64,000 nucleotides of DNA from an uncultured Nitrososphaerota archaeon (GCA_963824385.1 CAWGPD010000004.1:608001-672000); one strand, 5' to 3'. Shown: positions 20,633 through 59,276, counted from the first letter of the stretch. A program made the numbers and translations. The notes: generated by a model not told the origin, from the sequence alone.

Positions 20633-20660
20633 TTTTCCTATAATTATTTTTGATTTGTTC

Positions 20661-37222: not shown

Positions 37223-38878
37223 CTAGTTATTTGATTTGACTGTAATTGGCTGGTTTAATTCTTCTCTTGCTTTACAGATTTCACAGTAACTATCCCATTT
37301 TTTGCTATGCCTCCACTGTTCTAATCCTGTCTGATCAAATCTCTGATGAGCCATTTGTAAGATTCTTTTTGTGTCATGTTGGTACATGAATTGTTTCAAA
37401 GAAAACAATTCTGGAATTGTAAAATACTGGCTTACAGTAGCAGTATACTGAGTTGCATCCCCACATTCTTGCATAAATCTATCCAAGGCCTTTAGTTTCC
37501 ATTCATCAACTGTTTTTTTGTCAATATCAGGTCTATCTTTTACAAGCTTTAATCGTTCATCATATTGTTGAAGTATGAATTCTTTATTTGCGTAATAAAT
37601 TGGGCTGCCTACATAAGGAGTGCATATGAATGGATTTATTTCGATATTATTTCGAATCCAAAATGTTACAGTCTCCATTAAATCATCGATATTTTCATGT
37701 GGATTTCCTATCATGAATGTTGTAATGGGCCTAAGTCCAGTATTTTTAATTGTATCAAGGGTTTTTTGCAAGTGGGCTTGTGTTTGTCCCTTTTGAATAT
37801 CTTGACTTAATACTTTATCTGAAGCAGATTCAAACCCAAATGAGATAAAGGTGCAACCTGCGTCTTTCATAATTTTTATAATTCCTGGCTGGACTGCCAC
37901 ACTTGGTGCATCACCCAATGTTCCCCACTTTACTTTTTCGTGTAATCCTTCCTTTACGTACAAGTCACAAAATTCCTTTGTCCATTTTAGATTGCTAGTC
38001 ATATTTTCATCAACGCAAAATACAAAATCTACATTATATTTTTCATGCAAAAATTTTACGTTATCAACTGCATATCGTACAGAAGGCCATCGTGCAGGCA
38101 TTTGGAATGTCTCATTTTTCTTGTCAACCTCTCTTACAATTGCTTCTCCTTTTTTCCTATCACCTAATCCATAGATGTTTTGTATATCTCCTCTAGACAT
38201 TCCATTATGAGAACAAAATGTACATCCACGAGGACAACCTCTTTCCCATACCACATTTATTCTTCTTTTTGAATTAAATGCCTCTACAGACATTGGAAGA
38301 GAAGAATATTTGAAATAAATGTCCATTTCTAAGAGATGATAAGCCGGATAAGGTATAGTATTCAGATCAGAAATCAATGCACGAGGTTCTGTAAACTTGA
38401 TTTCTCCATTGTCTTTTAGACACAGACCTTTTACTTTATTGAAATTTCTTGTATTTTGAATCATTTCATCGCAGACCTCAGAGAATGTCTCCTCACCTTC
38501 TCCTATGCATACCATATCAATTCCTGGAACTAGTTGCAATATTTCATCAGCATTGTATGTAGCCCAACCACCACCGCTTATGATAGTAGAATCTGGACAT
38601 GTTTTTTTCATTAATGATACAAGTTGTCTAATGCGTCTATACGCAGTAGTAAGACCTCCAATTCCTATAAGATCCCATTTCTCTGAACCCATCTCTTCTT
38701 CAATTATTTTGGTGGGAACTAGCTGTCCATCATAATTCATCCTAAGTGCATTTAAATCCAATATGCCAACTTGGGCACCTTTTTGTTCTGCGATTGCACC
38801 CAATATTCCAGCCCAAAATGGAATATCATATGGTTTATCATTTAACCTAACTTCAGGTACTACAAGCAGAACTTTCAT
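37223..38878 (-). CDS. B12-binding radical SAM protein, copy A (intact)
   Basis: N-terminal cobalamin-binding-type region (DLIGIG, GGG, GEGE), RGCPRGCTFC, DEN, GFES, FMIG.P.E, PYVGS. Confidence 0.9.
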   Translation of the reverse strand: MKVLLVVPEVRLNDKPYDIPFWAGILGAIAEQKGAQVGILDLNALRMNYDGQLVPTKIIEEEMGSEKWDLIGIGGLTTAYRRIRQLVSLMKKTCPDSTIISGGGWATYNADEILQLVPGIDMVCIGEGEETFSEVCDEMIQNTRNFNKVKGLCLKDNGEIKFTEPRALISDLNTIPYPAYHLLEMDIYFKYSSLPMSVEAFNSKRRINVVWERGCPRGCTFCSHNGMSRGDIQNIYGLGDRKKGEAIVREVDKKNETFQMPARWPSVRYAVDNVKFLHEKYNVDFVFCVDENMTSNLKWTKEFCDLYVKEGLHEKVKWGTLGDAPSVAVQPGIIKIMKDAGCTFISFGFESASDKVLSQDIQKGQTQAHLQKTLDTIKNTGLRPITTFMIGNPHENIDDLMETVTFWIRNNIEINPFICTPYVGSPIYYANKEFILQQYDERLKLVKDRPDIDKKTVDEWKLKALDRFMQECGDATQYTATVSQYFTIPELFSLKQFMYQHDTKRILQMAHQRFDQTGLEQWRHSKKWDSYCEICKAREELNQPITVKSNN

Positions 38879-38939
38879 GTGTTAGAGTATTATGAAATAA
38901 TATTTAAAGCAAGATATTGGATTAATGCACAAAATATCG

Positions 38940-40040
38940 TCAGTTTTTATACAAATCAAGAAAATCTGCAAGAGTGATACATTTGATCCTGTCTCCAAAG
39001 ATACACCCACCTTCTGTTGCATTTACTGTAGTCAGCCAGTCAGGGGAACGTGAGATAAATTCCTTTAATGCACCGCTATAATACTTGAAAATTGGATCCA
39101 AGATACAATAGCATTTGAATTCAGGATTGTAGACTTTGGGAAATACTTTGGAAAACATTGGATCACTTTCATCTATTTTTATTTCCGAATGAGTATGACC
39201 ATGAGTTTTTATCACTTCCAATGGATCATCCTCGCTCCATCCATGGTTTATTCCAATTAATGATACGGTAGAGCATTTTAGAATTTTCCAGCTTACAAAC
39301 CATGCTGATGTACCCACATTTCCTCCAGTTTGTATTGCAGGTAGACCATGTAAGCGGTTTGCTCTAACCATTAGTGCAGACATTTGGTTAAAGGATTTTT
39401 TTCCTTCGTTATAATCAAACAATGCGTGAAGCCAGTGAATTTTTATTTTTGCCTGTCTTGCACGTTCAACAGTAATTGGATTTACTACAGTTGAAAATAT
39501 TCCTTTTATTTTATCGCCATACTTGTCAACTAGCTCATCATTATAATATTCCCTAATCTCTTTTCTTGAATCAATAGTAACTACATAATATTTGGGAAAT
39601 TTATCTGGAGTAATCCCAGCTTTTAATGCATTAATGAGGGCGCCGTCCGTACACACTATGGAACCCTGATAATCACTCTTTGCCAATAATTCCAAGTGAT
39701 TATATTTCTTAATCGATGGTCCACGCCCAATTATTATAGCAGAACCTTTAGCATCAGAACTATCTTTGGTTGGATCAAGATCCTTAGCAGAAGGTTCACT
39801 CCAAATGTTCTTCAGGTTCAAGGCAAAATATTGAACCCATTCATCATAGAATTTGTTATAGTATACCTCTTCCCATTTTTTTTCTATCTTTGTTTTTATT
39901 TTATCGTCAACCAAGTGATTATTGAGAATATGGATTAGCCACTCGTCCCAATCTTTTTCTTCAAAACCCATTGCTTTTTTCTTGTCTGAAATCTTCGAAA
40001 AAGTCTCTTTCCGAATTATAAGATCTATGTTATCAGACAT
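38940..40040 (-). CDS. DUF115/Maf (MptE-like) family protein, copy A
   Basis: IIIGRGPSI, VCTDGAL, VVTID, GGNVG, NATEGG. Confidence 0.85.
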   Translation of the reverse strand: MSDNIDLIIRKETFSKISDKKKAMGFEEKDWDEWLIHILNNHLVDDKIKTKIEKKWEEVYYNKFYDEWVQYFALNLKNIWSEPSAKDLDPTKDSSDAKGSAIIIGRGPSIKKYNHLELLAKSDYQGSIVCTDGALINALKAGITPDKFPKYYVVTIDSRKEIREYYNDELVDKYGDKIKGIFSTVVNPITVERARQAKIKIHWLHALFDYNEGKKSFNQMSALMVRANRLHGLPAIQTGGNVGTSAWFVSWKILKCSTVSLIGINHGWSEDDPLEVIKTHGHTHSEIKIDESDPMFSKVFPKVYNPEFKCYCILDPIFKYYSGALKEFISRSPDWLTTVNATEGGCIFGDRIKCITLADFLDLYKN

Positions 40041-40076
40041 TTTAATTTATTTGATTCATGTGTTGTTAATTTCGTT

Positions 40077-40281
40077 TTAAAGTTCGTCTAATCCTAATTC
40101 GTCGTCTTTTTTCTGTGATCTAAAAATCATAAATGAGCCAGTCTGCTCCTGAGCGACTAACAAGTTCTTCAAATTGTTCCTCTGTAAGATCTTCTTTGGT
40201 ATTGTCAGTTGATGAATTTTTATTGTTATCTGCACTAGAAATGTTTTTTTTAGTCTCAAAATTAGTCTTCAATGACACCAT
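40077..40281 (-). CDS. Small peptide, copy A (~64-67 aa); one extra base near 40143
   Basis: Rejoined (MVS)LKTNFETKKNISSADNNKNSSTDNTKEDLTEEQFEELVSRSGATGSFMIFRSQKKDDELGLDEL*; homologous to 62160-62344. Confidence 0.75.
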
Positions 40282-40478: not shown

Positions 40479-41372
40479 ATGAAAAAACAATCATGTATCT
40501 TGTGTAAACGTGAGGGCCTTGATATAATTTCAAATCAAGTGAGAGATTCAAAAAAACACAAGGTCCTAAAATGCCAAGGATGTGGTCATGTCCAGCTTTA
40601 CCCCATTCCAAGCCCAGAAGAGGACAAGGTATTTTATGATAAAGATCTGCAGAACAAGAATATAAAATATTATGGAAGTATTGAAGATCACAGAAAGAAA
40701 AGCATTGATGACACACTTAGACGATGGGAATTAGTTCAAAAAATTACTCCAAAAAAAGGTAAAATTTTAGAAATCGGTGCAGGACATGGATTTTTTGTGG
40801 AACTTGCTCATGATAGTGGCTTTAAAATCACTGGCATAGAGATCTCCGAGGAAAAAAGAGAGATGGCAAAAAAAGTGACCAAGGCTGAAATTTTAGATAT
40901 AGATATAAATTTTCAAGAACTCAATATCAAGGACTTTGATACCATAGTATTGTTTCATGTATTAGAACACATTACAAACCCATTCACATTTTTGAAAAAA
41001 ATTAAAAACATGTTAAAGCCACAAGGAAAGATAGTAGTAGAGGTACCAAACTGTGATGATTTTCAGCTTGATCTAAATGATGCATATAGAAATTTTTATT
41101 GGCAGAGAGCTCATTTACATTATTTTACTCCAAAAATTCTAAAAAGTGTCCTAAACAAAACAGGTTTCAAAACTGAAATCATGGGAGTTCAGAGATACAG
41201 TATAGAGAATATGTTCAGTTGGAAATTGACAAATAAGCCGCAGTTAAATGAGCCCACTTATAGTCTTCCTAAGCCGTATGAATGGATTGAATTAACATAC
41301 AAGAGTCATCTAGAAAAAAAATTAACGTGTGATACACTTGTAGCTATAGGAATCAATTCAAAAATCAAATAA
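40479..41372 (+). CDS. Class I SAM methyltransferase with N-terminal Zn-ribbon
   Basis: CILC..CQGC, LEIGAGHG, FHVLEH, EVPN, HLHYFT. Confidence 0.88.
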   Translation: MKKQSCILCKREGLDIISNQVRDSKKHKVLKCQGCGHVQLYPIPSPEEDKVFYDKDLQNKNIKYYGSIEDHRKKSIDDTLRRWELVQKITPKKGKILEIGAGHGFFVELAHDSGFKITGIEISEEKREMAKKVTKAEILDIDINFQELNIKDFDTIVLFHVLEHITNPFTFLKKIKNMLKPQGKIVVEVPNCDDFQLDLNDAYRNFYWQRAHLHYFTPKILKSVLNKTGFKTEIMGVQRYSIENMFSWKLTNKPQLNEPTYSLPKPYEWIELTYKSHLEKKLTCDTLVAIGINSKIK

Positions 41373-41391
41373 CGCCTAACTAAATCTTATT

Positions 41392-42408
41392 TTATAATTT
41401 ATTATAATGTAGTATGATTTTCTTTTCTTTTTTACTACTTTGTTCTATAGCATCCAATACTTGGAGTATTTTTAATTCATCACTAAATGAATGAGGATAC
41501 TTTTTCTTTCTTTTTACAGCATCTAGGAAATTCTTCATCTCCTCTTCATAAAGCTCCTCTGGTGGAGTACTACCTTTGTAACCCTTTGCAACTTCACCCA
41601 TTTTTACTTTGACAGTTTTCCATTTTTCGCCTTTACCTATTTTGATATATCCTTCATTGAAATCACATAGAATGGTTCCTTTTTCGCCAATGATTTTTGT
41701 TTCTCGAATCGATGGTCTTGTAATGACATCTATTACAAGTGTGCAAAATATCCGGTTCTTAAATTCCAATATTGTTTGATAAACGTCATCAATATCAGCA
41801 TCCAACTTTGAAAGTTTCTGTATGTCTCCATATGCTGATTTTATATCAGAGAAAAGATAGTTTAACCAAACCAATTCAAATGGAATTATTTCTCTTGCTC
41901 CACCTGTTTCTCTTTTTGAGACATAGAAATTTCTGTAATCTTCCCATGGATGCCAATCAGGGAGAAAATGTCCAAAATGATGGTAAATTGTCAGGATTTT
42001 ACCAATTGAATGACTGTCTAGTAATTTTTTTAGAATTTTAATCATGGGATGAAATCTCATTGTGCATGAAGGAACTCCAACTATGGATTTACTTTTCAGC
42101 ATTGAGATCAGTTTTTTTATATCATTAGAAAAGAGGTTCACTTCGGTGAAAAAATTTATTTTATTTTTTATCGCTATCTCAGCATATTTTCTATGCAAAT
42201 CAGGAGGAGTTGAAATTACCATGACATCAGGTTGCATACTTAGCGCATCATCAAAATCTCCAATTGTAGTTACATGATATTTTTTATTTGTCTCTATTCT
42301 TCTATCTTCTCGAGGATCAAAACCAATTATGTTCGTATAACCTAATTTCAAAAGATTTCTTATTCGTCGTTTACCCATAGAACCTAATCCGACTACTAAT
42401 ATTTTCAA
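41392..42408 (-). CDS. Gfo/Idh/MocA oxidoreductase
   Basis: VVGLGSMGKR, STPP..H, RFHP, LPDWHPWEDYR..Y. Confidence 0.88.
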   Translation of the reverse strand: MKILVVGLGSMGKRRIRNLLKLGYTNIIGFDPREDRRIETNKKYHVTTIGDFDDALSMQPDVMVISTPPDLHRKYAEIAIKNKINFFTEVNLFSNDIKKLISMLKSKSIVGVPSCTMRFHPMIKILKKLLDSHSIGKILTIYHHFGHFLPDWHPWEDYRNFYVSKRETGGAREIIPFELVWLNYLFSDIKSAYGDIQKLSKLDADIDDVYQTILEFKNRIFCTLVIDVITRPSIRETKIIGEKGTILCDFNEGYIKIGKGEKWKTVKVKMGEVAKGYKGSTPPEELYEEEMKNFLDAVKRKKKYPHSFSDELKILQVLDAIEQSSKKEKKIILHYNKL

Positions 42409-42487
42409 TAATCTTCGTTTTTTGTTCTCGCATAGAGTAAATATCTGTTATGAAATGAAAATGCCCATTTTTTATAAAAATTATAAA

Positions 42488-43805
42488 TTATTTATTTGAT
42501 TTTTTTGTAGGAGATATTTTCATTGTCCATATCTTTTTAGGAAGATTTCCTTCCAAGTGTTTTTTATAATCTCCATTAGAAACTTTACTATTAAGAAAAC
42601 TACAAACTTCATCTAATGTGTGAAGAGTGTTATCAATGTCTTCTACTGAGTGAGAATACGAGATGAACGAAACACCAGGCGAGATAAAGATTCCTTTTTT
42701 TACCATCTCTTGTAAAACAAGTGCTTTCAGTGGGAGAGACTCTTCTTTTTTAGAATTATAACAATCAATTGTCATTCGAATAGGATACCCGCGTACTTTG
42801 ATATTCAGATTATGTTTTTCTGTTATTTTGTTCCAGCCTTCAAATAGTCTAGTACCAATTTTCCAACAATGAGAGATTACATCCTTTGATCTCATTTCAT
42901 TTATTGTGGCAATTGTTCCTGCAATAGATAGAGTTTCACTGTTATTAGTTGATGAAACCCACAGTTCATCAAAAATTTTCATAAATTCAGTTGGACCAGT
43001 GATTGCTGATATTGGAAGGCCATTACCCATGCCCTTACCAAAACATACCAGATCTCCTTTTATTCCAAAATACTTTTGTCCACCCGCTAGATCAAATCTA
43101 AAACCAGTAACTATTTCATCTAATATCAATAAAGAATTATTCTTGTCTGCCATTTGACGAACTTTTTTTAGAAAATCACTTGTAGGTTTTTCATAATGAG
43201 TAGGCTCTAGAACAATTGCCGCTATTTCATTTGGGTTATCCTCAAAGATTTGTTCTAGTCCGGCAGCATCATTATAATCAAAAATTTTTATCAACCCTTT
43301 GTTAAATTCTGGAACTCCACCATCACGGCTGACCATTGCTGCCTGCCAGTCATGCCACACACCTCCGCTTCCACAATATGCGATTTTTTCTCGTTTTGTA
43401 ATGGCTCTAGCTGCTCTGATGGCACCTGTAACAGCATTTGAACCTGATTTCTCCAGTTTAACCATCTCAGCATGAGGTATAGTTTTAGAAATTAATTCTG
43501 AAAGTTCTAGTTCTACAGGATGTGGTAGAGAGAACAAAATTCCTTGCTTTAATTGATTTATTATCGCATCATTGACAGGCTTTGTAATTATAACCTAGAG
43601 TTATTGGACCTAATGCCAACAAATAATCTAGATAATCATTACCATCGACATCAGTAAAATGTGAACCGTTTGCAGATTTAACGTATACAGGATATACGCC
43701 TTCAACAAATGATGAGGCTGCTCTACTAAATGTGCCAGTTAATGACGGTATTACTTTTCTTGCACGCTCTTTTAGTTTGTTAGATTCATCAATTTTTCTA
43801 TTCAA
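42488..43805 (-). CDS. Class III PLP aminotransferase (glutamate-1-semialdehyde aminomutase-like); frameshift near 43570
   Basis: DVDGNDYLDY, LGY, KSGS.A, LEP, DEIVTGFR, FGKGMGNG. Confidence 0.85.
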
Positions 43806-43904
43806 ACATAATTTGTTACATTGACTAATAATTAATGGTTTTGTACTTTGTGTTTATGCCAGTTAGAAATTGTACACAATAAAAAATTGTTTATTACAAT
43901 TACA

Positions 43905-44649
43905 TCATTTTACATTAGCATTGAATTTAACTTGATTATTAAGAAAATCTTTTTGTCGATGAAAGTTTATCTCAGAAATAGATTTGTTGTTCTCAAGAAA
44001 AGTAACTATCGCTTTACCATTTTCTAAAATATCAATATTTTCATATAATTTTCTAAAAAATTCTAGATCCTCTTGATAGTCTAATGTCAATCGTATATCC
44101 TTGTTTCTTTCAAAATCTTCAAGTGTAACATAAGTCATGGTTAGTTTTGCTTTTTCAACATATCTAGCAATCACATCAGTATTGGCATTATCATCAGATA
44201 CAACAGAAAATAATTTTACTATTGCGCTTTTTTTCATGGCATATGTAAAGAATCCTGTTACAATGTCATCAGGACATGTAATAATATCAAAATTGCTTGA
44301 TTTTAATTGGGATAATGCTCTAGTTCCTATTTCATAATTACTTGTCAGATCATCTCCATCTACAATTAGTGCATTTTCAATATGAAATGCATTAAAACAG
44401 TCATGCCAACGTTTTATCTTATTTAACAGAGAACCCCTGAAAATTTGTACGTCATGTTGTCTTTGCTACATCTTCAAAGATATCATCAGTGGGATCAGTT
44501 GAGGTTGTAATTATAACTGGTAAACCTGTTTTTTTTGCCCTCTCAACAACAATATCAATAGAGCGTAAATTTCCTTTAATTGGCATAATTGCCTTGTTAG
44601 GAAGTCTTGAGGAGGAATTACGAACGGTAACAAGTGCTGCATCTTTCAT
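43905..44649 (-). CDS. SpsF-like cytidylyltransferase; two frameshifts
   Basis: VR.SSSRLPNK, TS...DD, FRGS, VDGDD, RLTLDY.ED. Confidence 0.8.
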
Positions 44650-44721
44650 TATTATCATAGAATCACCTAATGAAGGTTTGAGATACATATGTTTTCATTA
44701 AAATCATAATTATTAGATGAA

Positions 44722-45711
44722 TTATTTATCGTAAAATGGGTCCGTTCTTAATTTATAATAATTAAGGTCGTGCTCTACCATTGTTTTTACTAGTTCCTTG
44801 AAACTCAATTTTGGTTTCCATCCTAATTCTTGCCTAGCTTTGGACGCATCTCCTACTAGTTCCACAATGTCAGCAGGTCTCTTGATGGATTCATCAATAT
44901 GGACAAAATCATGCCAATCTCCCAAACCAGTATATTCTGCTGCCAGTGAAAGAAATTCTTCCAAAGAGTGGGACTCTCCTGTGGCAATCACATAATCATC
45001 TGGTTTTGATTTTTGTAGCATCAACCACATGGCTTCGACATAATCCCCTGCAAAACCCCAGTCTCTTTTGACATGAATATTTCCTAGATGGAGTTTGTCT
45101 GTTTTATGGAATTTTATTGCTGCAAATGTATTTGTGATTTTTCTTGTAACAAATTCCAGTCCACGTAAAGGAGATTCATGATTGAAAAGAATTCCACAAC
45201 ATGCAAAGATATTGTAGGCATCACGATAATTTACAGTCATATGATGCGCAAAAACTTTGGAGGCTCCATAGGGACTCTTTGGTTTAAAAGATGAACTTTC
45301 ATTTTTTATTCCAGGATAATCGCCATACATCTCACTGGTTGAGGCTTGGTAGAATTTTGCATTAGGTGCAAATTCTTTAATTGATTCAAGAACACGGATT
45401 ACACCAATCCCAGTTACATCTGCAGTAAGAATTGGCTGCTGAAATGATGCAGTAACAAAGGATTGAGCAGCCAAATTATAGATTTCATCAGGTTGAGATT
45501 CTTTAATGGCTCGTTGAATTGAGATTTGATCTGTCAAGTCAGCTTTGATGGTAGTAATTTTTTCAAAGGTATCCATCTCTTCCAATCTTTCAAATAACTT
45601 GTGACTGGTTCTTCGAAAAGTCCCAAAAACATTATAGTTCTTTTTTAAAAGAAAATCAACTAGATACGAGCCATCTTGTCCTGTAACTCCAAAGATTAGA
45701 GCGTTTTTCAT
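44722..45711 (-). CDS. gmd: GDP-mannose 4,6-dehydratase
   Basis: GVTGQDGSYL, YNLAAQSFV, YQASTSE, SPYGASK, GILFNHESP.RG.EFVTRKI, RDWG. Confidence 0.93.
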   Translation of the reverse strand: MKNALIFGVTGQDGSYLVDFLLKKNYNVFGTFRRTSHKLFERLEEMDTFEKITTIKADLTDQISIQRAIKESQPDEIYNLAAQSFVTASFQQPILTADVTGIGVIRVLESIKEFAPNAKFYQASTSEMYGDYPGIKNESSSFKPKSPYGASKVFAHHMTVNYRDAYNIFACCGILFNHESPLRGLEFVTRKITNTFAAIKFHKTDKLHLGNIHVKRDWGFAGDYVEAMWLMLQKSKPDDYVIATGESHSLEEFLSLAAEYTGLGDWHDFVHIDESIKRPADIVELVGDASKARQELGWKPKLSFKELVKTMVEHDLNYYKLRTDPFYDK

Positions 45712-46530
45712 CCCACAACCAATCCATTTTCGACCATTTTATCTAAAAATTCCTTGAAACCAGTACCACCATGCTCATGACCCTTCCATACTTCAATAGC
45801 AAAACCTGCACTTTGATATTTGTTCAAGATAGGAATAATTTTTTCAAATGGCAAGTCACCCTCGCCATACTGTAATCCTTCACCATCAATTCCACCGGCA
45901 TCAGACAAGTGATAATGATCTACAAAGTTTTCTACTTGTAGTAGTTCATCTACTAGCGATAATTTTTTTGTATTACAGTAAAGTTGAGAATGACATAAAT
46001 CAAAACAGATGTGCAAGCCTGTCTCCTTGTGATAATTTACCATGTCGTTGAGCATTTAGAAATACATTGCAATTCCATCTACCGCCAAAAAACCATGCAT
46101 ACGGAGGCATGTTTTCTAAAAGAAAATTGACATTTTTGAGATCAAGTTGTTTTACTGCATCAACTAGCTTGTCTTTCATTTGTTGAACATCAGATGGATT
46201 TAGTTCATGTAATGAATATCCACCTGGATGAACTATCATGGTAGGTTTACCGGTAAACTGCTCATTAAGAGAGATTGTTTTGTCTATAGCTTTTTGGATT
46301 AATTCTAGTGTCTTTTCTTGAGACTGGATTTGATTTGTTTCTCCCAGGCTTACTATATCCAGTAATTTTCTGTCAAAATATTCATAGCAGTGTACAATCA
46401 ATTGTTGTTCAAAATTTCTATCAAGATTTAGTTCCAAGTCACTGTCAGAAAAATGAAACTCTAGTATCTTGGGATTATACTTTAACATGTCATCAAGATC
46501 ATGCTTTCTTACTTTCATCCCTAGAATCAT
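45708..46530 (-). CDS. Xylose isomerase-like TIM-barrel protein; frameshift near 46030
   Basis: EFH, VH, VHPGG, ENMPPYAWFFGG, CFD.CH, HLSDA.G.DGEGLQ, EVWKGH. Confidence 0.8.
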
Positions 46531-47601
46531 TTCAGATCTGCTTGTAGCAAGTATTGCCCCTTTTTTATATTTCTGGTTGACTTTTTGCCCAGCAAGTCAT
46601 AATAGTACTGCGGAGACAATCCCTTTGCAGGACCCTTTATTTCCAAATTTTGCTCTGAAAAGACATCTCCCTCTTGTATATCAGAAGAAGAGACTATGCT
46701 TTTTGCAAGAACTTCACGTTGCAGTACTTCTCCTCTAGTCATTTTTTTAACTGCCTCACCTTTTGATTTCTCAGCCTCTCGTGACATATTTTACAAGATT
46801 TTTGAATTCCTCTGGCTCTAATGATGCTGATTGGTCAATACCTTCCATTGTTTTGTCCAAGGTGATATGACGCTCAATCAATACTGCACCCATGTTTGCA
46901 GCAGTAAGAGACGGAATAATTCCTGGTTCATGTCCGCTGTAACCAACTGGTACATCAAACTTTGTCTTCAATACAGGAAGCAGATTGAGATTAAGCAGTT
47001 CAACAGGTGATGGATATGTGCTATTACAGTGCAGTAAGATAAAAGATGCATTCTCTTTTTTTACAAAATTTACTGTTTTTTCAATTTCATCCAGAGTCGA
47101 CATGCCAGTGGATATGATTATTGGTTTTTTTGTTTTTGCGACATATTTGATTAATGGTAAATTAGTCATGTCAGCAGAAGCAATCTTGTAAGCTGGAACA
47201 TTGAATTTTTCAAGAAAATCTACACTTGGTGCATCCCAAGGAGTACACAGAAATGTAATTTTCTTTTCTTTACAATAATCAATTATTTCTTTATACTCAG
47301 ATTCATTGAATTCAACTTCTTTTAGTATGCCGATTAGTATCTCTAGGCCTTGACTATCCAGATTAGGATTTACCAATACATCATCTTTGTAAATTTTTTC
47401 TAGAGTTCTTTTTTGAAATTTTACCGCATTAGCACCCGACTCGACTGCAACATCTATTAGTTTTTTTGCCAATGGAACTTGTCCGTTATGATTAATCCCA
47501 ATTTCTGCAATTATATAACAAGGCTCATCAATACCTACTAGATTATCTCCGATTTTGACTTTATTTTTATAGCTATATTCCAATTCTTGATTAATACACA
47601 A
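46527..47601 (-). CDS. neuB: N-acetylneuraminate synthase family (NeuB) with SAF domain; frameshift near 46780
   Basis: IAEIGINHNG, AVKFQ, KIASAD, STGM, LHCNSTYP, GYSGHE, ERHITLD; C-terminal KSIV...KGP..G. Confidence 0.9.
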
Positions 47602-47648
47602 TGACCTGTTTTTGTATGTTTGTTATCTAGACAATTACATCAACTAGT

Positions 47649-48935
47649 TCATTGTTTATCTTTTTTTTCAGTTAATTCTAATAGTTTATCACATATTCGT
47701 TCTCCAGCACGTCCGTCCCATTTGAACATAAATTCTCGAATGAAATCATTACGTTTTTGTTCTGTAGCTGGATTTTTTTCCAGTCCCAAATGAATCAATT
47801 CAAGTAAAGAAGATGGTTCTTTGCAATCAATAGCCAGACCTCGTTCTAAAAATGCGTCTCCTTTAAGATCAAAGAAATTGCAAATTACTACTGGTTTTTT
47901 GTATAATAATGCGTAAACTTCAGCAGTACTAGACTGGAATGAGATTACCACATCAGAATCATTAAGAAATTCCAAGATATCGCCTTTCTGGTGGACTGGA
48001 ATTGATGAATCTAGTGAATGTACTAGTAATTCATAATCAGACAAAACAGAAGAGGAGGGATGAATTTTAACTGTAACTGAAGTCTCATTTTTATTTTTTA
48101 AAAGTTCTTTAATAGTTTCTTTGACTGCAAACTCTCGTTGTTTTTCTGTCCAAAATCCATGTTCATACAATGTGGAAGGAGCAAAAAGTACATGTATTTT
48201 ATTGTCTTTTTTGTCAGACTGTTTAGAATCAGATAATTTTTGAAAAGCTAGATCATATATTGGATTTCCTGTGACAACAAGATTAGACTTGTTGTATCCC
48301 ATCTCAATTCGTTGATTTAACAGGCTTTCATTTTCTAGAAATTCAACCGTGTCATTGGCAAACCTAGGATTTAGCTTGTCCATGAAAACAAATTTCCAAA
48401 TCGTAAACAAAGTTTGTATTATATCCTTCTTTATAGCAAACTTGGTTTTTAATAAAAAAATATACTTGAACAAGATAAAATCTACCTCTTTTCATGAATA
48501 TTTTTTTACTTTTTTCTGTATCAGTAGGAATTGAACTTTGGAAAAACCGTGATACGTTTGAGGAAATATTTTCAGCAAGATTTTTTTTAATCCAAATATC
48601 ACTATACACTACACAAAATGCAGGAATACTACAAAACTTGGCGGCAGATGATAAAGCATGATCAATAAAACTCCATGTTGCATTAGCATAAACCAGATCA
48701 GGTTTTCTTTTTTTATCACGTCAACTGCATTTTCATAGTCATGTATATCCAAAACAGTAGAATCAGAATGATTCCAGTTTGTAGAATCTATTCTTTCTGG
48801 AGTATAAACTAGCCATAAAATATGCACATTTACTTTGGTTTTGAGAACAGACAACAAACTTTCAAAGAATATAGTGGTAACCGATTTTACATCAGGTAAT
48901 GTGTGAAGAGGAACTAGAATTTTTAAATTCTTCAT
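47649..48935 (-). CDS. GT-B fold glycosyl/sialyltransferase-like protein; frameshifts near 48680, 48630 and 48365
   Basis: C-terminal VTGNP.YD, VKIHP, S.ST..E, KPV, DGRAGERI; located in a NulO gene cluster. Confidence 0.6.
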
Positions 48936-48941
48936 AAGAAA

Positions 48942-49912
48942 TTATCGGTTTTGTAGAATAAATTTGAAGTGATTTCCAGAGTTTGAAGCATCAATGGCTA
49001 GGTTGAAGAGTATTGTAAAAATCACTACACATCTTTGCTTTAGATTCATCACCTAAAAGGTCATAGTAAGCTTTCAAGTCTCCTAAATCAATCCCATTTG
49101 TTTGAATATGCGCAAGATCCATTCCTACTCTCTCTGCAAGTTTTTTTACAGAATCATGAGTAAAATACTGTAAATGAGCTAGGTGGACAAATCACTTGCC
49201 ATTTTTCTTTCATAATTGTAATTGCTACAGAATCAAAGTTAGGAGTTAAAACCAATATGATTCCATCCTTCGCAAGCAATCGTTTGGCATCAGATATGAA
49301 TTTCACCGGATCAGTGACATGTTCAATTACATCAAAAATAGTAATGACATTAAATTGAATATCGGTTTTTATCTTGTCAATAGGCTCATCAAATACAGTT
49401 ATTCCTAAATGGTTTCTAGTCCATATCGCAAGATCTTTTCCCAACTCCTGACCATAAGCTTCAAAATTATTCTTGAGTGCGATCTGTAGATAATGTCCTA
49501 CTCCGCATCCAATATCAAGTAACTTATTTCCTTTAGCAAATTTTTTGATTAATTCGTATCGTTCAATCCCAAATCTTTCTTTTCTATAATTGCTTTCTTT
49601 GTCAACAGCTTCAATCATCTCAGGCAAATATCCCTCATCTGAATAAACATCGCCAACATTATTTGGAATCTTTGAAGAATACCGATGGCTGCATTCTTTG
49701 CATCCATAAATGTCAATATTGAATTTATTCAGTCTCTTTAGAATACTCGTTACTTTTGCACATTGGACATGTGTGAATGTCTTTGAATCCACTACCTTTT
49801 ACGACATTTTCCATAGCAATCTTTGCCCATTCTGTTTCTCTTTTCAGGAAACCTGTGGTCGTAATTTATCAATATCAATTGCTTTAAAAGTTTCAAGAAT
49901 TTTTGAGTACAT
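48942..49912 (-). CDS. Class I SAM methyltransferase with Zn-ribbon; several frameshifts
   Basis: CPMC..CKEC, LLDIGCGVG, FDVIEH, TPN; ends ...SGNHFKFILQNR*. Confidence 0.75.
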
Positions 49913-50153
49913 GTGTGATGTGATAAATTTCAGGTAAGATATATTAGTTTAAGTCCTTCTTATTATGAAAATACATGCATTCAATATAATTTTAAATCTT
50001 TCATATATAATTAGAAATTTTTAAGCATAAACCTGTTATTGAAAAAAAATTATTTAATTTAGTATTACAAAAAAGAAACAATCATCATAATAGGAAAATC
50101 TAAAAAATAAGGATGAAATAAAATTAGATTAAGAAACTTTTGCGAAAGGTTTT

Positions 50154-50268
50154 AGGTAATTTCTAGAGTTTGAAGCAATCTATGACAGGTTGAAGAGTAT
50201 TGTAAAAGGTATTACATATCTTTGCTTCAGATTCATTACCTAAAAGGTCATAGTAAGACTTTTAAATC
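50154..50268 (-). pseudogene. Degenerate copy of the 3' end of the neighbouring methyltransferase gene
   Basis: Direct repeat of 48968-49080 (shared agagtttgaagca, aggttgaagagtattgtaaaa, acctaaaaggtcatagtaag). Confidence 0.8.
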
Positions 50269-50297
50269 CAACTAGAATTTAGAATGTAGCACCAAAA

Positions 50298-51083
50298 ATG
50301 AATCCGAATAAAATCAAACAACATTATAATAATGAAGTTAAGGAGCACGCATTTTCTGCAAAGAGCACCATGGAAGATTTATTCGTCAGAGATTTAGAGA
50401 TTTCAAAGATTGAAAATGTATTAGAAAAGATAGTAGAACAAAATCAATCGGAATCTGTACTAGAGATAGGTTGTGGAAATGGTTATACGGTTAATGAATT
50501 AGCAAAAAAATTTCAATGTAGATTTACTGCAATTGATGCCAATGAAAAAATGATAAATGTTGCACGAAAGAGAAAATTGAAAAATGTGAATTTTTTTGTG
50601 AGAGACGTATTAAAAATGAATTTTGATGAGGAAGCATTCGACATAGTTTTTTCTGAAAGATGTCTGATAAATTTGACCAGTTGGACTGCACAAAGGAAGG
50701 CACTCTCAATGATCCACAAAATTCTTCGTAAAGGAGGACACTATGTAATGTTAGAAGCATTTAACGATGGTCTCAATGAATTGAATAAAGCAAGAAAATC
50801 ACTAGGATTAAAGAAAATAAATCCAGCATGGCATAATCTTTATTTTGACAAGAAAAAACTCGAATCACATATAAAAGGAAAATTTACCGATTGGAACAAT
50901 AATTTAGAATTACATATGACAATTTTCTAAGTTCGTACTATTTTGGGAGTAGAGTGTTGTATCCTTTTAATAGAAGGAAAAGTTCCATTGCTTTATAATA
51001 ATAGTTTTGTAAAATACTTTACTCTCATTCCAAGTGTAGGAAATTATAGTCAGTTACAACTTTGTGTGCTGAAAAAAATTTAA
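50298..51083 (+). CDS. Class I SAM methyltransferase; frameshifts after ~50910
   Basis: LEIGCGNG, ERCLINL, HNLYF; later frames give NFLSSYYFGSRVLYP and GNYSQLQLCVLKKI*. Confidence 0.8.
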
Positions 51084-51176
51084 CATTTAGAAATTATTTA
51101 AATTCAATCTGAACTCTGACACAAATGGATTAAAATTATCTGTTGTTATGATGATACCATTCTAATTAGACAAAAT

Positions 51177-52326
51177 TCAATATGAAAGATTTTTCTGGAT
51201 TAAATTTTTATTCAAATTAATTTTTTCAAGATATTCAACAATTTTTTTTGATGCGTTACCACTTCCATAAACATTTTTATTAATTTTATAATGTAATTTT
51301 TTCATTCTTAATGCATGTAATATTGCATTACTTACAGAACTAGTGGATGCATCTTTTACTTCAAAAACACCAGCACCTCTTTCTCTACCTTGTTGTCTAC
51401 TACCGATATTCACAACTGGAATCTGAAAATAGCTACCCTCAATTATTCCACTACTCGAATTACCAACTAAAGTACCACAATTTTGAAGCATTCCGAGAAA
51501 GTCTTTTCTTGGTAACGAAGCATATAATTTTATGAAATCATATTTTTTAGAGAATAGTTTCAAATGATTAAAGATATTTCGGCTTCCTGCATCACTGTTT
51601 GGAGCAATGGCTATTGTGGTCTTTTTTAAACTTATGATAGCTTTCAGGATATTATGAATATTTTTTTCATTAAGTTCTGGTTCAGTTGTGACTGGATGAT
51701 ATAGTAATAATATTTCGTCTCCCTTGAATTTTAAATTATAAATCTTTTCAAGAACCTCTTTTTTGGTAATATCCTTATCAGTTATTTCATCAATACTTGG
51801 AGAACCAGTTAAAAATACATATTTTGGATTTTCGCCCATCATGATTATTCGTTTTTTACTTTTTGGAGTGCTGGGAAATGAATATTTGACATTTTTGTAA
51901 TTGCATGCCTATTATACTCATCAATACCTCCAGATTTATCTCCACCATGTATATGGGCATTTGGTATATTCATATGATAAGCAGCAATAGCAGATGCTAA
52001 CATTTCATCTCTATCTCCTAACACCACATTAATGTCAGGTTTTAAATTTTTGAATATTTTAGAAAATGCAATTATTCCTTTTCCTAATGATTTTGACATG
52101 GAATACCCAGTATCACTTTTTGGCATCATGTTACATAGTTTTGAAAATCTTGAAACCATCTTTTTTTATTTCATTAATTGTAAGTCCATATTTTTTTGAA
52201 AATGCGTACCAGTAACAACTAGATAAAGATTCTAGTTTTCTTACTTTTTTGAATTAATTGTAAAAGAGGTCGTAAAATCCCATATTCTGCTCTTGTTCCG
52301 GTTGTTACTACAATTTTTCTTTTCAT
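51177..52326 (-). CDS. neuC: UDP-N-acetylglucosamine 2-epimerase (hydrolysing, NeuC/LegG); several frameshifts
   Basis: TGTRAEYG, LGDR.E, HIHGG, DE..RHAITK, YHPVT, PNSDAG, GNSSSGIIE, IG.RQ.GR. Confidence 0.88.
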
Positions 52327-52361
52327 TGTGTATCAAATATAATGTTTAACCTAATAATACC

Positions 52362-53514
52362 TAAGTATTCAATCTCATTTTACTAGATCCTAGTCCAACC
52401 TTGAATTTCGGATGCCAAACTCCATCCCTATCTTGTTCAAAAAATTCACGGTTATACCATTTATCCATGGTCTTCCAAAATTCTCTTACTGACATACCTG
52501 TAAACTCACAGAATTTATCAACTACACCTTGATCTAGTTTTCGTCAATTTTCTCAACTAAGAGGAATCATTTCTTCTCTTGTTTTGAAGCCATAACTTAT
52601 CCAACGTAGATGCATTATCAGTTGCTACAGAGTGAGCAAATTTCAAGATATTTCAAGATAAGGATTGAGTAAGTAACTTAAGAGATCTATTTGATCATAG
52701 TTATCAATAGAACCTTCTCTTTCGTATTCATGGCCTAGATGACGAAATCCCCAACGCTTTGCAACTTCATAGTTATGGATAGAATTCCAAGGAAGAAAGT
52801 AGACTTAGATAAATTGGTTCAAGTCCAAAATTCTTACATTCTTCTACAGTGGGAGCCACTTGCAGAATGTAAGATCTTTTTCAGTTATTTGTACCATGCT
52901 GTAAGCCATTCTTCTGAATAGGGTTTTACAACATCATTTATGAGGTTGAAGCATTGCAGATGGTGTTTCTTCATTGAATTTTCCTCCGTATGTATATTTA
53001 ACATCTTCACCATAAACCAGTAATTTAACACCCAATTGCATAGTCATTCTATATGGAAATGCATAGATCAAAGAATCAAGATACCATGATGGTTGACCAA
53101 TTTCTTCAAATGCTTTTCTGAGTCATTATTCTAGTAACATTCGTCTATTTGGTTGTAATCTGAATTACTTCACATCCAAAAACATCAGATATATTGTCCA
53201 AGGTTTTTTCTTCCTGTTTCAGTCCAATCAATATTTCCCACTGTAATAAGAATCGGATTCATTTTCATTACTTCTTTCATGATATACGTTTGAAAATGAG
53301 AATCTTTTCCCCCTGATACTGCAATTGCACAATCATATCCATTTCCATTGAAACCCCTATATTTATCACAAAGTGTTTCAAGTTCTTTTAAGCGTTTTTC
53401 CCAATCTGTTGTTTTTTGTTTTTCATAATTGATACAAGCTGCACAAATACCAGATTCATCAAAAGTTAATCCTGGTCTAGTATCAGGCATCAGGCATTTT
53501 TTACAATATTTCAA
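52362..53514 (-). CDS. N-acetyl sugar amidotransferase (PseA/PtmG/WbpG-like); many frameshifts, 3' end approximate
   Basis: MKYCKKCLMPDTRP, C.AC, YDCAIAVSGGKDS, YGE, REGSIDNYDQID, YLKF. Confidence 0.8.
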
Positions 53515-53684
53515 TTTTCATTTTATTGTTATTGATTAGATATATATCAATTTGACTGATTTTCTTCAAATATTTATCATTTAGAGAGTCATAATTGGTC
53601 TAGTTTTATCATTTTATGAGGACAATTTGAAAAATCAAAATTATTTTAAAAAGTATTATACCTCAAGAAATGAAATATCAAGAT

Positions 53685-54383
53685 ATGACATTCATAGTAG
53701 CAGAAATAGGAGTGAATTGGGATGGAGATTTTAACCTAGCAAAAAATATGATGGAAAATGCAAAAATTGCAGGATGTGATGCTGTAAAATTTCAGGCATT
53801 CAATAAACAGATCTTGGGAAATCATCCTGAAAATGAGAAGTTACTAAAAACTTCAATTTCTCATGAAAATGTAAAAACTATTGATGAGATATCAAGGTCC
53901 GTAGGAATAGAGTGGTTTTGTACTCCCATGTATGTAGAAGCAGTAGATTTCCTAGGTCACTATGTAAGAAGATTCAAGATAAGAGAAGGTGATGGAAGAC
54001 CTTTACTTGAAGACAAAACTACAGATTTAATTGAACGAATATTTGATACTGGTAAAGATGTGATAATAAGTAGTAAACAGTCTCCACACAATTGCAAACT
54101 TTACAAACATCCTAAAATAAAATGGTTATATTGTGTTCCAAAATATCCATGTGATTTAACAGATTTAGATTTTGGAGAATTAGATAAATTCAATGGATAT
54201 TCAAATCATTGTCCTCAGATTATAGCACCATTAACTGCAGCCATTTTAGGTGCAGAGATAATAGAAATGCACATCACATCCGATAAATCCAAAAATTTTG
54301 TTGATAATAGCGTAAGTTTTGACTATCAAGAGCTTGCAGAAATTGTTAAATTAATTCGACTCTCAGAGAAAATAAAAAGGTAA
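53685..54383 (+). CDS. Short NeuB-family synthase lacking the SAF domain
   Basis: IVAEIGVNWDG, AVKFQ, YCVPKYP, GYSNH, IEMHIT; ~232 aa. Confidence 0.8.
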   Translation: MTFIVAEIGVNWDGDFNLAKNMMENAKIAGCDAVKFQAFNKQILGNHPENEKLLKTSISHENVKTIDEISRSVGIEWFCTPMYVEAVDFLGHYVRRFKIREGDGRPLLEDKTTDLIERIFDTGKDVIISSKQSPHNCKLYKHPKIKWLYCVPKYPCDLTDLDFGELDKFNGYSNHCPQIIAPLTAAILGAEIIEMHITSDKSKNFVDNSVSFDYQELAEIVKLIRLSEKIKR

Positions 54384-54420
54384 TAAACACAGAGAAAGAA
54401 GATAAGATGGGTTTTTACAA

Positions 54421-55125
54421 ATGAAATCAATTTGTTTCATAGGAGCACGCGGAGGATCAAAAGGAGTACTCAAAAAAAATGTTCGGTTACTAAATGGAAA
54501 ACCGCTAATATCTCATTCAATAGAATCTGCTCTAGATTCAAATATTTTCAGTAATGTTATAGTATCTACTGAAGATAATGAGATTGCAAAAATTGCAAAA
54601 CAATATGGTGCAGAAGTTCCTTTTATGCGTCCCAAGAAATTAGCAACAGATACAGCTGGAATGTATGATGTTATAATTCATGGAATAAACAATCTAAGAA
54701 ACCTAGGTTACAAATTTGATATTCTAGTTAATCGTGACTGTACTGTTCCTTTTATTCGCAATAAAGACATACGGGGTTCAATCAATTTACTACAGAAAAA
54801 GAATTGTGATGCAGTATATGGTGTGTATAGACAACATCATAATCCTTACTTCAACATGATGGAACCAGATTCCAATGGTTTTTTGAGATATTCTAAAAGT
54901 ATTGGAAAGAAAATAAAAAGTAGACAATCTGCACCAGTAGTATATCAATTAAATGGATTATTCACAATTTATGTTGATAAATTATTAAAACATGGAAAAT
55001 GGCATATGCCTAAAATACTTCCATATGAAATTCCACCAGAAACTGGTTTTATGATTGACACAGAGTTTGAATTTCAAATTGCAGAGATGATAGCTAAAGG
55101 AAAAATCAAAATTCCACGAATATAA
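54421..55125 (+). CDS. neuA: Acylneuraminate cytidylyltransferase
   Basis: ARGGSKG..KN, KPLI, VSTED, PFMRP..LA.D, Y.LNG, IDT..EF. Confidence 0.9.
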   Translation: MKSICFIGARGGSKGVLKKNVRLLNGKPLISHSIESALDSNIFSNVIVSTEDNEIAKIAKQYGAEVPFMRPKKLATDTAGMYDVIIHGINNLRNLGYKFDILVNRDCTVPFIRNKDIRGSINLLQKKNCDAVYGVYRQHHNPYFNMMEPDSNGFLRYSKSIGKKIKSRQSAPVVYQLNGLFTIYVDKLLKHGKWHMPKILPYEIPPETGFMIDTEFEFQIAEMIAKGKIKIPRI

Positions 55126-55150
55126 AATTAAGAAATCTTAAGTTTTCTAT

Positions 55151-55962
55151 TTACCATGCAGTCCATCCTCCATCAACTATCAAATTACTTCCTGTCATGT
55201 ATGATGAGGCATCAGATGCTAGGAATAGTATTGGTCCTTCATAATCCTCTTTTTGAGCCATTCTTCCCAACATTGTTTTTTGAGAATAATTTTTCAAGAA
55301 ACTCGTACCTTTGTGTAAATTTTCATCAAAAACTCCACCAAGCGTAAGAGTGTTTACTCTTATGTTTTTTCCTTGCCAATAAGCTGCTAGATAACGAGTT
55401 AAATTTACCATTGCTCCCTTTGTGGCAGCGTAAAAGGCAGGAGAATTCAATCTACTGTTACCATAAATTCTTTGATCTGCTCCAACAATTCCATAGATGG
55501 ATGAGACATTAACAATTACTCCTTTTTTCTGACTGACATTATTTTACCAAATTCTTGACAACAAAGGAAGAGTCCACGCATGTTAGTCATTATTGTTTTA
55601 TCCCATAATTCTAATGGATATTCTTCAAACGGTGCATCTCTTTTAGGATGGTCACGTGGAACAAAATGCGCATTATTAATCAGAATATCAACTTTTTTGT
55701 AGTTTGTCGATATTTTTTTAATCAATTTTTTAATGTCGGATGCTTCGCTTATGTCAATTTGTAACGAGATTGGATTAGTACCATATTTAGCAATCAATTC
55801 TTTTTCTAGTTTTTTATTGTTGATCTTTTCAACATCTACTAAAACAACATCTGCTCCTGCTGCACTTAGTACATGTGCAAATCTAGTTCCAAGTCGTCCT
55901 GCAGAGCCAGTAAGAACGGCAGTTTTATTTTTTAAATTAAATAATTTGTTAATGTAATCCAT
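55151..55962 (-). CDS. SDR oxidoreductase (PtmA-like); frameshift near 55525
   Basis: [44 protein letters not shown]. Confidence 0.85.
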
Positions 55963-55963
55963 T

Positions 55964-56957
55964 TTATCTACCAACTACTTGTAATCTCCTAAGTTTTGAG
56001 GATTTTTTGATTGCAAGTGCAACTTTCAGTGTATAAGTCCCTTCCTTTAAATCATTTATGGTTTTCTTTCTCTTACGTATACAATCAACAAAATGGTGTA
56101 ATTCCTCAAGATAAGTCATGATTCATATCATAATTAGGCAATTTTAATTTTTTAGTCCAAGTTTTATTTTTTGTATTATAATATATAACATCATTAGTAG
56201 TCATATCCCAACTAAGTGTTCCTTTAGTACCAATTATTTTACAATTTCTTGCATTTGGGCTCTGGAAATAGTCAAGATGAGCTTCTCCAATTATATTATT
56301 TTTAAATCGTCAATAATATGGCTGACAAATCTTCTGCTTGTATGTTAAGATTACTAAATTTTCCAGTAATAGAATAGACTTCGTGAACATTTCCAAAAAA
56401 CCAGTATAGATAATCAATTTCATGAATACATGTAAGAACAACTCCGCCTCCCAAATCATCTCTTGCAGCATAACTTTTTTTATAATTTTCTGATGGATGC
56501 CAGTCAGGTAAAAAAGAACCATTCTCTACTCTAACTGAAATTATTCTTCCAAGTTTTCTGCTAGAAATAATTTCTTTCATCATCTGTTATAGAAGGATGG
56601 AATCTGAGATTACATCCAATCAGAGTTATTAGTTTATTTTTATTTGTTATATTCAATAATTCATTAATCCCTTTCAAAGAGTTTGAAAGTGGTTTTTCTA
56701 TGAATAGATGTATTCCAGCTTTTGCCAATTTCATTGCCGTTGCAATGTGAAGATGTGTTTCATTTGTTATTATAGCAAATTCTGGTTTTTCTTTTATACA
56801 ATCATCTAACGATTTAAACAGTTTACAATGTTTTTCTTTTAAAAAATTATCATATTTTCTTTTGCTACATACCAAGATTTCCATATTTGAGAACGAGGAT
56901 GAGATTTTCTATGTGACGCTTTCCAATAGAACCATAACCTACTACCAGAGCTTTCAA
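55964..56957 (-). CDS. Gfo/Idh/MocA oxidoreductase (PtmF-like); several frameshifts
   Basis: VVGYGSIGKRH, IEKPL, NLRFHP, LPDWHP..Y, GGGV....HEID, HLDY. Confidence 0.82.
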
Positions 56958-58059: not shown

Positions 58060-58070
58060 AAAATTAGAAC

Positions 58071-59209: not shown

Positions 59210-59276
59210 TTTATTTTCCTCTTACTTGAAATAAAAATTCATTTCAGGATATAAATGACTCATAATAGTAGTCAGA

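What the first reader, a model, noticed from the sequence alone, without database searches (positions are those of the whole stretch)
37223..40281. Duplicated cassette: hidden small peptide + Maf/DUF115 + B12 radical SAM (second copy at 59277-62344)
Seen: the same three genes occur twice, in the same order and strand, about 22 kb apart, bracketing a nonulosonate biosynthesis cluster. The enzyme paralogues are collinear but diverged, so this is not an assembly duplicate. Known: B12-binding radical SAM enzymes often methylate unactivated carbons, including on RiPP precursors, and Maf/DUF115 proteins transfer pseudaminic or legionaminic acid from CMP-sugars to Ser/Thr. Inference: a co-inherited module in which the peptide is a substrate, carrier or partner. 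It could be an archaeal methylated/nonulosonylated RiPP-like system or a new sugar-tailoring complex. I know of no described system with this layout.
Basis: partly seen in the sequence, partly recalled or inferred. Interest (0 to 1): 0.85.

Follow-up and report, generated by a model that had tools for sequence, protein, structure and literature searches.

The report
Peptide-assisted sialic-sugar methylation module
A tiny conserved protein, a sialic-acid-type sugar transferase and a vitamin-B12 radical enzyme are encoded together in ammonia-oxidising archaea and in bacteria; they likely add a carbon to sialic-acid-like surface sugars, which would explain unassigned ten-carbon sugars reported in a magnetic bacterium.

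Summary
Confirmed. Peptide, Maf-like (PF01973) and B12 radical-SAM genes occur twice, 70.6% identical. The frameshifts are assembly errors. Another genome has the same two-copy layout.

All three genes co-occur in 87 of 87 testable loci, down to about 30% enzyme identity, including 10 of 10 alphaproteobacterial loci read. The peptide matches no Pfam or NCBIfam family; a Gly-Ser pair is present in 192 of 192 examined. The transferase folds like the Maf catalytic domain (Z 22.7). A NeuB-family gene is in 22 of 23 cassette genomes versus 88 of 328 others.

New lead: Magnetospirillum gryphiswaldense encodes the peptide, and two papers report an unexplained C10 (Pse/Leg + CH2) ulosonic acid in it. 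Its neighbouring genes could not be checked.

Best reading (0.42): radical C-methylation of a nonulosonic acid, with the peptide as a Ser-linked sugar carrier. A secreted RiPP is less likely. No activity, binding or expression is shown; co-folding was unavailable. The scan noted this module twice before in other archaeal genomes.

The parts
40077..40281 (-). Small conserved peptide, copy 1 (about 65 aa; one spurious extra base near 40142 breaks the frame in this assembly)
   Evidence: family alignments
38940..40040 (-). Maf-like PF01973 (DUF115) protein, copy 1, 366 aa; Maf catalytic-domain fold with an N-terminal helical extension
37223..38878 (-). B12-binding radical SAM enzyme, copy 1, 551 aa, CxxxCxxC at 215-222
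62160..62344 (-). Small conserved peptide, copy 2 (frame broken near 62283 in this assembly)
61000..62129 (-). Maf-like PF01973 protein, copy 2 (frame broken near 61750)
59277..60935 (-). B12-binding radical SAM enzyme, copy 2 (frame broken near 60165 and 59700)
40479..59221 (.). Nonulosonate biosynthesis island between the copies: methyltransferases, Gfo/Idh and SDR oxidoreductases, class III aminotransferase, GMD, NeuB (46530-47601), short NeuB-like (53670-54383), NeuC, WbuX-like, PseF-like cytidylyltransferase (54421-55125), PseB-like, DegT

Best explanation
The three genes form one co-inherited module that likely C-methylates a pseudaminic/legionaminic-type nonulosonic acid to a ten-carbon sugar, with the peptide predicted to act as a sugar carrier. 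Step 1 (inferred): the Maf-like protein transfers the sugar from CMP-NulO to the peptide's conserved Gly-Ser serine. Step 2 (inferred): the B12 radical SAM enzyme abstracts a hydrogen from the tethered sugar and adds a methyl group from methylcobalamin. Step 3 (inferred): the sugar returns to the CMP pool by reverse transfer, or by release and re-activation by the neighbouring cytidylyltransferase, and goes into surface glycans. Shown here: gene linkage, folds, conserved residues and the association with nonulosonate genes. Not shown: any activity, binding or expression.
For: Trio intact in 87 of 87 testable loci (86 within my cut-offs, plus L147 where two genes intervene). The peptide stays when gene order changes (L037, L038, L118, L075). 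The trio persists at 47%, 32% and about 30% enzyme identity, into Alphaproteobacteria. A CMP-sugar synthetase-like gene lies beside the cassette in 9 of 10 bacterial loci read. NeuB or a cytidylyltransferase is in 66 of 76 loci of 10 kb or more. NeuB is in 22 of 23 cassette genomes versus 88 of 328 others. The transferase model matches Maf 5mu5 residues 238-513 (Z 22.7, rmsd 3.1, 248 aligned), above MptE (Z 14.6), and covers only Maf's central domain. An acidic residue is kept at 157 in 63 of 64 rows and N/D/E at 266 in 64 of 64; these fit, by spacing only, the Maf catalytic positions in bioRxiv 10.1101/2020.06.03.131540. Gly-Ser is present in 192 of 192 peptides (187 by pattern, 5 by eye). 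M. gryphiswaldense MSR-1 encodes the peptide (CDL00638.1). Its dominant ulosonic acids are C10 (PMC8157484; bioRxiv 10.64898/2026.04.20.719630), and the de-O-acetylated form equals Pse/Leg5Ac7Ac + CH2. Two other Magnetospirillum samples gave only C9 hits.
Against: I could not see the genes beside the MSR-1 peptide, so the C10 link rests on the peptide alone (searches found no usable gene table). PMC8157484 also reports the C10 species at low level in 'Methanococcus', not checked here, and its authors suggest a promiscuous synthase. The rSAM fold does not pick the chemistry: top match is the diol dehydratase AprD4 (Z 26.8), then OxsB 25.4, TsrM 24.6, CysS 24.5, TokK 24.4, all at 15-18% identity. 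By sequence the transferase hits only MptE in the PDB. The Ser reported as essential in Maf seems to be Asn here (by spacing). Gly-Ser invariance is partly by construction, since peptides were found with profiles containing it; MAFFT aligned the bacterial and archaeal motifs one residue off my register. 10 of 76 long loci lack NeuB and cytidylyltransferase nearby, and G440's cassette stands apart from its NeuB. Four cassette genomes have only the short NeuB-like paralogue. Loci and genomes are related, so the counts are not independent.
Confidence: 0.42

Rival explanations
1. The module methylates a nonulosonate or its precursor, but the peptide is a non-covalent subunit or adaptor (like GlfM for Maf-2). 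The rSAM acts directly on CMP-NulO, or on an earlier nucleotide-hexosamine, held by the Maf-like domain.
For: Same linkage and C10 evidence. The peptide has several separate conserved patches: an N-terminal K-x-N-F motif, a predicted helix and a hydrophobic strand-like stretch, as expected of a binding partner. GlfM precedent (bioRxiv 10.1101/2023.12.03.569772, abstract). Fom3 acting on a CMP-linked substrate is recalled knowledge. SugarBase also lists small CMP-linked species of 203 and 217, which differ by CH2.
Against: The one hydroxyl residue kept in all peptides examined is a Ser, the residue type Maf enzymes modify. The transferase keeps acidic residues at plausible catalytic positions, which a pure binding domain would not need.
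Confidence: 0.25
2. The module does other radical chemistry on a sugar or related metabolite: AprD4-like deoxygenation, OxsB-like ring change, or Fom3-like methylation of a phosphonate; or the PF01973 protein is an MptE-like kinase. The MSR-1 C10 sugar would then have another origin.
For: AprD4 and OxsB are the top fold matches. Oxidoreductases are frequent neighbours. Phosphonate genes flank the cassette in L152 and L157. MptE is the only significant PDB sequence hit.
Against: The N-terminal B12-binding domain passes the Pfam cut-off. Phosphonate gene families were not among the neighbour families seen in 4 or more of 88 loci. The fold is much closer to Maf than to MptE.
Confidence: 0.2
3. 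The peptide is a RiPP-like precursor whose end product is a glycosylated, methylated peptide.
For: Small peptide beside a B12 rSAM and a Ser/Thr glycosyltransferase fold. A helix ending in Gly-Gly in bacterial members loosely recalls double-glycine leaders (recalled). Weak sub-cut-off hits to RiPP rSAM models such as ApyD.
Against: One peptide per cassette, with a core nearly invariant across 120 top hits and no variable core. No peptidase among the 33 neighbour families annotated (33 of 56 families seen in 4 or more loci). Archaeal members lack the Gly-Gly. Neighbours are sugar-pathway genes that change from locus to locus.
Confidence: 0.12

Closest known systems
Maf flagellin nonulosonate transferases (M. 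magneticum Maf, PDB 5mu5; Maf-2/GlfM system)
   Same: PF01973 domain, same catalytic fold (Z 22.7), location in nonulosonate islands, a small co-encoded partner protein in the GlfM case.
   Different: About 330-370 aa and matching only Maf's central domain; always paired with a B12 radical SAM enzyme; partner is a 50-70 aa peptide with a conserved Ser; far below the PseD model cut-off (42 vs 670 bits).
Class B cobalamin-dependent radical SAM methyltransferases (TokK, CysS, TsrM, MgmA; Fom3 and GenK recalled)
   Same: B12-binding plus radical SAM domains, CxxxCxxC in 114 of 114 rows, matching fold (Z 23-25). The TokK and CysS structures carry pantetheine-tethered substrates, per PDB titles.
   Different: 15-18% identity; no NCBIfam family cut-off reached; no described member found that acts on a nonulosonic acid or travels with a Maf-like protein.
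AprD4 and OxsB (radical sugar dehydratase; ring-contracting enzyme)
   Same: Best fold matches (Z 26.8 and 25.4); act on sugar or nucleotide substrates.
   Different: 16% identity; antibiotic pathways; no peptide or Maf-like partner known to me.
MptE / archaeal HPPK (PDB 8sd5)
   Same: PF01973 family; sequence hit E 2.7e-6 over the N-terminal strand region.
   Different: Shorter, weaker fold match (Z 14.6); folate-type cofactor role, whereas this gene is patchy (23 of 351 family genomes carry its rSAM partner) and sits in glycan islands.
Carrier- or scaffold-peptide systems (acyl carrier proteins, LysW-type carriers, pearlin scaffolds; all recalled)
   Same: Small, conserved, single-copy peptide proposed to hold a substrate for tailoring enzymes.
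   Different: No sequence family match; the proposed cargo is a sugar on Ser via a sialyltransferase-like enzyme, for which I found no description.

Membership tests
Class B (cobalamin-dependent) radical SAM enzyme | N-terminal B12-binding domain plus radical SAM domain with CxxxCxxC | tested here: met
   PF02310 54.8 bits and PF04055 63.3 bits, both over cut-off; CxxxCxxC in 114 of 114; fold
Class B (cobalamin-dependent) radical SAM enzyme | Methyl transfer from methylcobalamin to carbon | not testable with these tools
   Fold matches methylases and non-methylases about equally
Named NCBIfam B12-rSAM families (BchE, ApyD, HpnJ, KedN5, PhpK, AprD4 and others) | Score at or above the curated cut-off | tested here: not met
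   Best 125 vs 481 bits (BchE); none reach cut-off
Maf flagellin glycosyltransferase | PF01973 catalytic domain with Maf fold | tested here: met
   PF01973 55.5 bits over 34.6; 5mu5 Z 22.7, rmsd 3.1, 248 aligned
Maf flagellin glycosyltransferase | Catalytic acidic residues and conserved Ser (AMB-1 E324/D415; CbMaf D272/S334/D357) | tested here: inconclusive
   D/E157 in 63 of 64 and N/D/E266 in 64 of 64 fit by spacing; invariant Asn where Ser is expected; no residue-level alignment to Maf was made
Maf flagellin glycosyltransferase | Full-length architecture with additional N- and C-terminal acceptor-binding domains | tested here: not met
   366 aa, aligns only to residues 238-513 of 632; PseD model 42 vs 670 bits
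Maf flagellin glycosyltransferase | Flagellin or archaellin as acceptor | not tested
   None among the 33 neighbour families annotated; no dedicated search
MptE / HPPK | Closest solved fold and pyrophosphokinase role | tested here: inconclusive
   Only significant sequence hit but second by fold, Z 14.6 vs 22.7; activity not testable
RiPP system | Precursor with conserved leader and variable core | tested here: not met
   Variable part is a central linker; both ends and the core are conserved
RiPP system | Co-clustered protease or exporter; RRE domain | tested here: inconclusive
   No peptidase in 33 of 56 neighbour families annotated; not universal in RiPP clusters; RRE not searched
Maf-2/GlfM tripartite system | Small four-helix-bundle specificity factor binding Maf | not tested
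   Peptide not folded; co-folding tool unavailable; only the abstract and outline of the paper were seen
Any catalogued small-protein family | Pfam or NCBIfam match | tested here: not met
   58 archaeal members: no match near a cut-off; 4 bacterial members: 0 NCBIfam families; 30 of 30 ESM Atlas hits have no common Pfam

The most novel reading that the evidence does not exclude
This is a carrier-peptide pathway for sugar tailoring shared by archaea and bacteria: a stripped-down Maf loads a nonulosonic acid on a dedicated peptide's serine, a B12 radical enzyme extends its carbon skeleton, and the product is the orphan ten-carbon ulosonic acid of Magnetospirillum gryphiswaldense. Ammonia-oxidising archaea with the cassette would carry the same class of sugar, and the two paralogous copies here would tailor two different sugars or positions.
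Probability: 0.35. Interest if true: 0.95.

Novelty: categorically new. Interest (0 to 1): 0.86.

Why it matters
Two mass-spectrometry papers report a carbon-extended sialic-acid-like sugar and name no enzyme for it in the parts I read. This module is a concrete candidate, and a deletion in the genetically tractable MSR-1 would test it directly. If the peptide carries the sugar, it adds a new kind of carrier logic to glycan biosynthesis and a new substrate class for B12 radical SAM enzymes. It would also predict C10 surface sugars in some ammonia-oxidising archaea and many uncultured bacteria, and defines a large unannotated small-protein family.

Tried and rejected

Assembly duplicate: rejected (70.6% identity; each copy has its own counterpart in G065). 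Pseudogenes or programmed shifts in the window: rejected.

Peptide fused to an enzyme: not seen among 46 profile hits in 1.84 billion representatives. One 130-aa hit looks chimeric; three long proteins with repeated weak matches were not examined further. The bacterial profile search covered only 30-104 aa.

Viral contigs and plasmids: no match. No RNA holder listed, which says nothing on expression.

MSR-1 gene neighbourhood from paper supplements: nothing usable. Same-genus search: 0 of 36, later 2 of 56.

Paper searches for the system: searches gave 0 papers; some searches gave one listing each, none on this system by title and abstract start; one search gave only SugarBase as relevant among 15 listed of 137. 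The library omits most subscription papers, and bioRxiv supplements (SugarBase SI) could not be seen; they may name candidate genes.

Full report
Observation. The window holds two minus-strand copies of peptide, PF01973 protein and B12-binding radical SAM enzyme at the stated coordinates. They are 70.6% identical over 2,647 nt and are the only copies in the assembly. Nonulosonate genes lie between them. Both peptides and both copy-2 enzymes are broken by small indels. The extra base in peptide 1 is absent from otherwise identical contigs of 4 of 4 runs (2 studies), related contigs lack the copy-2 shifts, and 9 of 22 other genes compared are split too. These are assembly errors. Genome G065, of another genus in the family, has the same two copies about 20 kb apart, one closer to each window copy (81%; 72-89% by piece), so the duplication is real and shared.

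Co-inheritance. The rSAM was found in 23 of 351 family genomes, 8 of 9 loci from the genome collection were close orthologues, and 80 of 163 confirmed metagenome stretches were kept. Of 108 distinct rSAM loci, 87 had enough upstream DNA; 86 had peptide and transferase within my cut-offs and the 87th (L147) has the transferase two genes further on. The usual order is peptide-transferase-rSAM (54 of 56 triples, median gaps 37 and 60 nt). When the order changes the peptide stays. Loci were chosen by the rSAM, so the converse (peptide without enzymes) is untested, and related loci are not independent.

Range. Four tiers appeared: 63-83%, 46-48% with a shorter peptide, 32% (L149, L150) and a bacterial tier with named Rokubacteria and Elusimicrobia members. 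The bacterial enzyme was in 3 of 400 genomes of one alphaproteobacterial class draw, 2 of 6, 8 of 15 and 1 of 1 in three orders picked from those hits. All 10 bacterial loci read have the trio, 9 with a CMP-sugar synthetase-like gene beside it. A profile of five distant peptides gave 2,587 clusters at E <= 10 of 5,381 candidates; I saw only the best 120 (all E < 1e-19), which include M. gryphiswaldense MSR-1 and Labilithrix.

The peptide. It is 50-70 aa: an N-terminal K/R-x-N-F motif, a variable linker, an F-E helix-like stretch, then Gly-Ser and four mostly hydrophobic residues. Gly-Ser is in 192 of 192 examined, though retrieval by profile favours this. The core shows third-position-biased change. 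It has no Pfam or NCBIfam family, the Atlas clusters are unnamed, and no enzyme fusion was seen among 46 profile hits.

The enzymes. The transferase model (pLDDT 88.8) matches the central domain of Maf (Z 22.7) well above MptE (14.6) and sialyltransferases (7-8.5); by sequence only MptE hits. Acidic or amide residues are kept at two positions that fit Maf's catalytic residues by spacing, while the Ser reported as essential appears as Asn. The rSAM model (G065 orthologue, pLDDT 92.7) matches AprD4, OxsB, TsrM, CysS, TokK and MgmA at Z 23-27 and 15-18% identity, and reaches no NCBIfam cut-off. The fold shows a B12 radical enzyme but not its reaction.

Link to nonulosonates. NeuB or a cytidylyltransferase lies in 66 of 76 loci of 10 kb or more. 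On the same 351-genome draw, 22 of 23 cassette genomes have a NeuB-family gene against 88 of 328 others; the miss (G294) is 85% complete, and four have only the short paralogue. The other neighbours vary, so the module behaves as an optional tailoring unit. Against this: 10 long loci lack these genes nearby, G440's cassette is apart from its NeuB, and two loci sit beside phosphonate genes.

An orphan product. PMC8157484 (passages; ESI parts 4 of file 2 and 5, 6, 11, 12 of file 1) reports a C10 ulosonic acid, C16H26N2O9, in M. gryphiswaldense; all its listed hits are class '9+', while strain J10 and M. magneticum gave only C9. The de-O-acetylated form is Pse/Leg5Ac7Ac + CH2. bioRxiv 10.64898/2026.04.20.719630 (abstract, passages, sections 12 and 13; supplements not seen) finds CMP-linked species at 679.198, 693.214 and 707.230 with a marker at m/z 311.10 instead of 297.09, and argues for a longer backbone rather than O-methylation. 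Neither text, as read, names an enzyme. MSR-1 encodes the peptide. Since the peptide had both enzymes beside it in every bacterial locus read, MSR-1 likely has the trio, but I could not check this. The first paper also reports the species at low level in 'Methanococcus' and suggests a promiscuous synthase; both are unchecked here.

Mechanism. I favour radical C-methylation of a nonulosonate with the peptide as Ser-linked carrier (0.42). The transferase has only Maf's catalytic domain, its constant partner carries a conserved Ser, and a CMP-linked C10 pool means the carbon is added before final glycan assembly. Reversibility of sialyltransferases is recalled knowledge. Rivals: peptide as non-covalent subunit (0.25), other radical chemistry (0.20), RiPP end product (0.12). 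The first two together give about 0.67 for 'methylates a nonulosonate or its precursor'. Co-folding was not available, so binding is open.

Other papers: bioRxiv 10.1101/2023.12.03.569772 (abstract and outline) and 10.1101/2020.06.03.131540 (passages); PMC7676999, PMC9549626 and PMC5459824 (supplement term searches only).

Novelty. Each part belongs to a known superfamily, but the module meets no described system's definition. Searches found no description; the library is incomplete. Two earlier scan notes saw the module in other archaeal genomes; their summary lines do not mention the bacterial tier or the C10 sugar. Verdict: real, conserved in archaea and bacteria, undescribed as far as searched, with a directly testable candidate product. 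Interest 0.86.

Noticed in passing
L149:11791-12011 and L150:8297-8520: In the 32% tier the transferase frame is conserved, with synonymous changes, upstream of its first ATG/GTG and overlaps the peptide's stop codon in the +1 frame in both genomes. Either an ATA start or a frameshift fusing peptide and transferase.
   Followed up: partly
L157:7411-7811: A partial tandem duplicate of the peptide gene precedes the intact one; the copy keeps the N-terminal motif but loses the Gly-Ser core.
   Followed up: no
window:39900-40040: The longer transferases carry about 45 extra N-terminal residues, helical in the model, that resemble a ribbon-helix-helix domain (recalled resemblance, not tested). Many marine members lack them.
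   Followed up: no
window:62469-63989: 506-aa ORF just upstream of copy 2 with no Pfam or NCBIfam match and no second copy in the genome.
   Followed up: partly
window:53670-54383: Short NeuB-like protein (237 aa, 102 bits). In four cassette genomes this type is the only NeuB-family gene found.
   Followed up: partly
L152:11029-17221 and L157:16583-19264: Phosphonate genes (PEP mutase, decarboxylase subunits, nucleotidyltransferase; in L152 also Fe-ADH and an HTH-cupin protein) lie near the cassette.
   Followed up: partly
L168:991-6696: In G440 the cassette abuts genes that look like a TonB receptor and ABC uptake system, possibly for cobalamin (by inspection only).
   Followed up: no
L031 and L033: Archaeal-type cassette genes (68-69% identity) on contigs filed under an alphaproteobacterial and a Nanoarchaeota MAG; probably mis-binned.
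   Followed up: no
L075:8705-11659 and 18477-21415: One metagenome contig carries two cassettes of different tiers (67% and 46%) in different gene order.
   Followed up: partly
window:1-64000: The assembly has many single-base indels; annotation from this window will undercount and split genes.
   Followed up: yes
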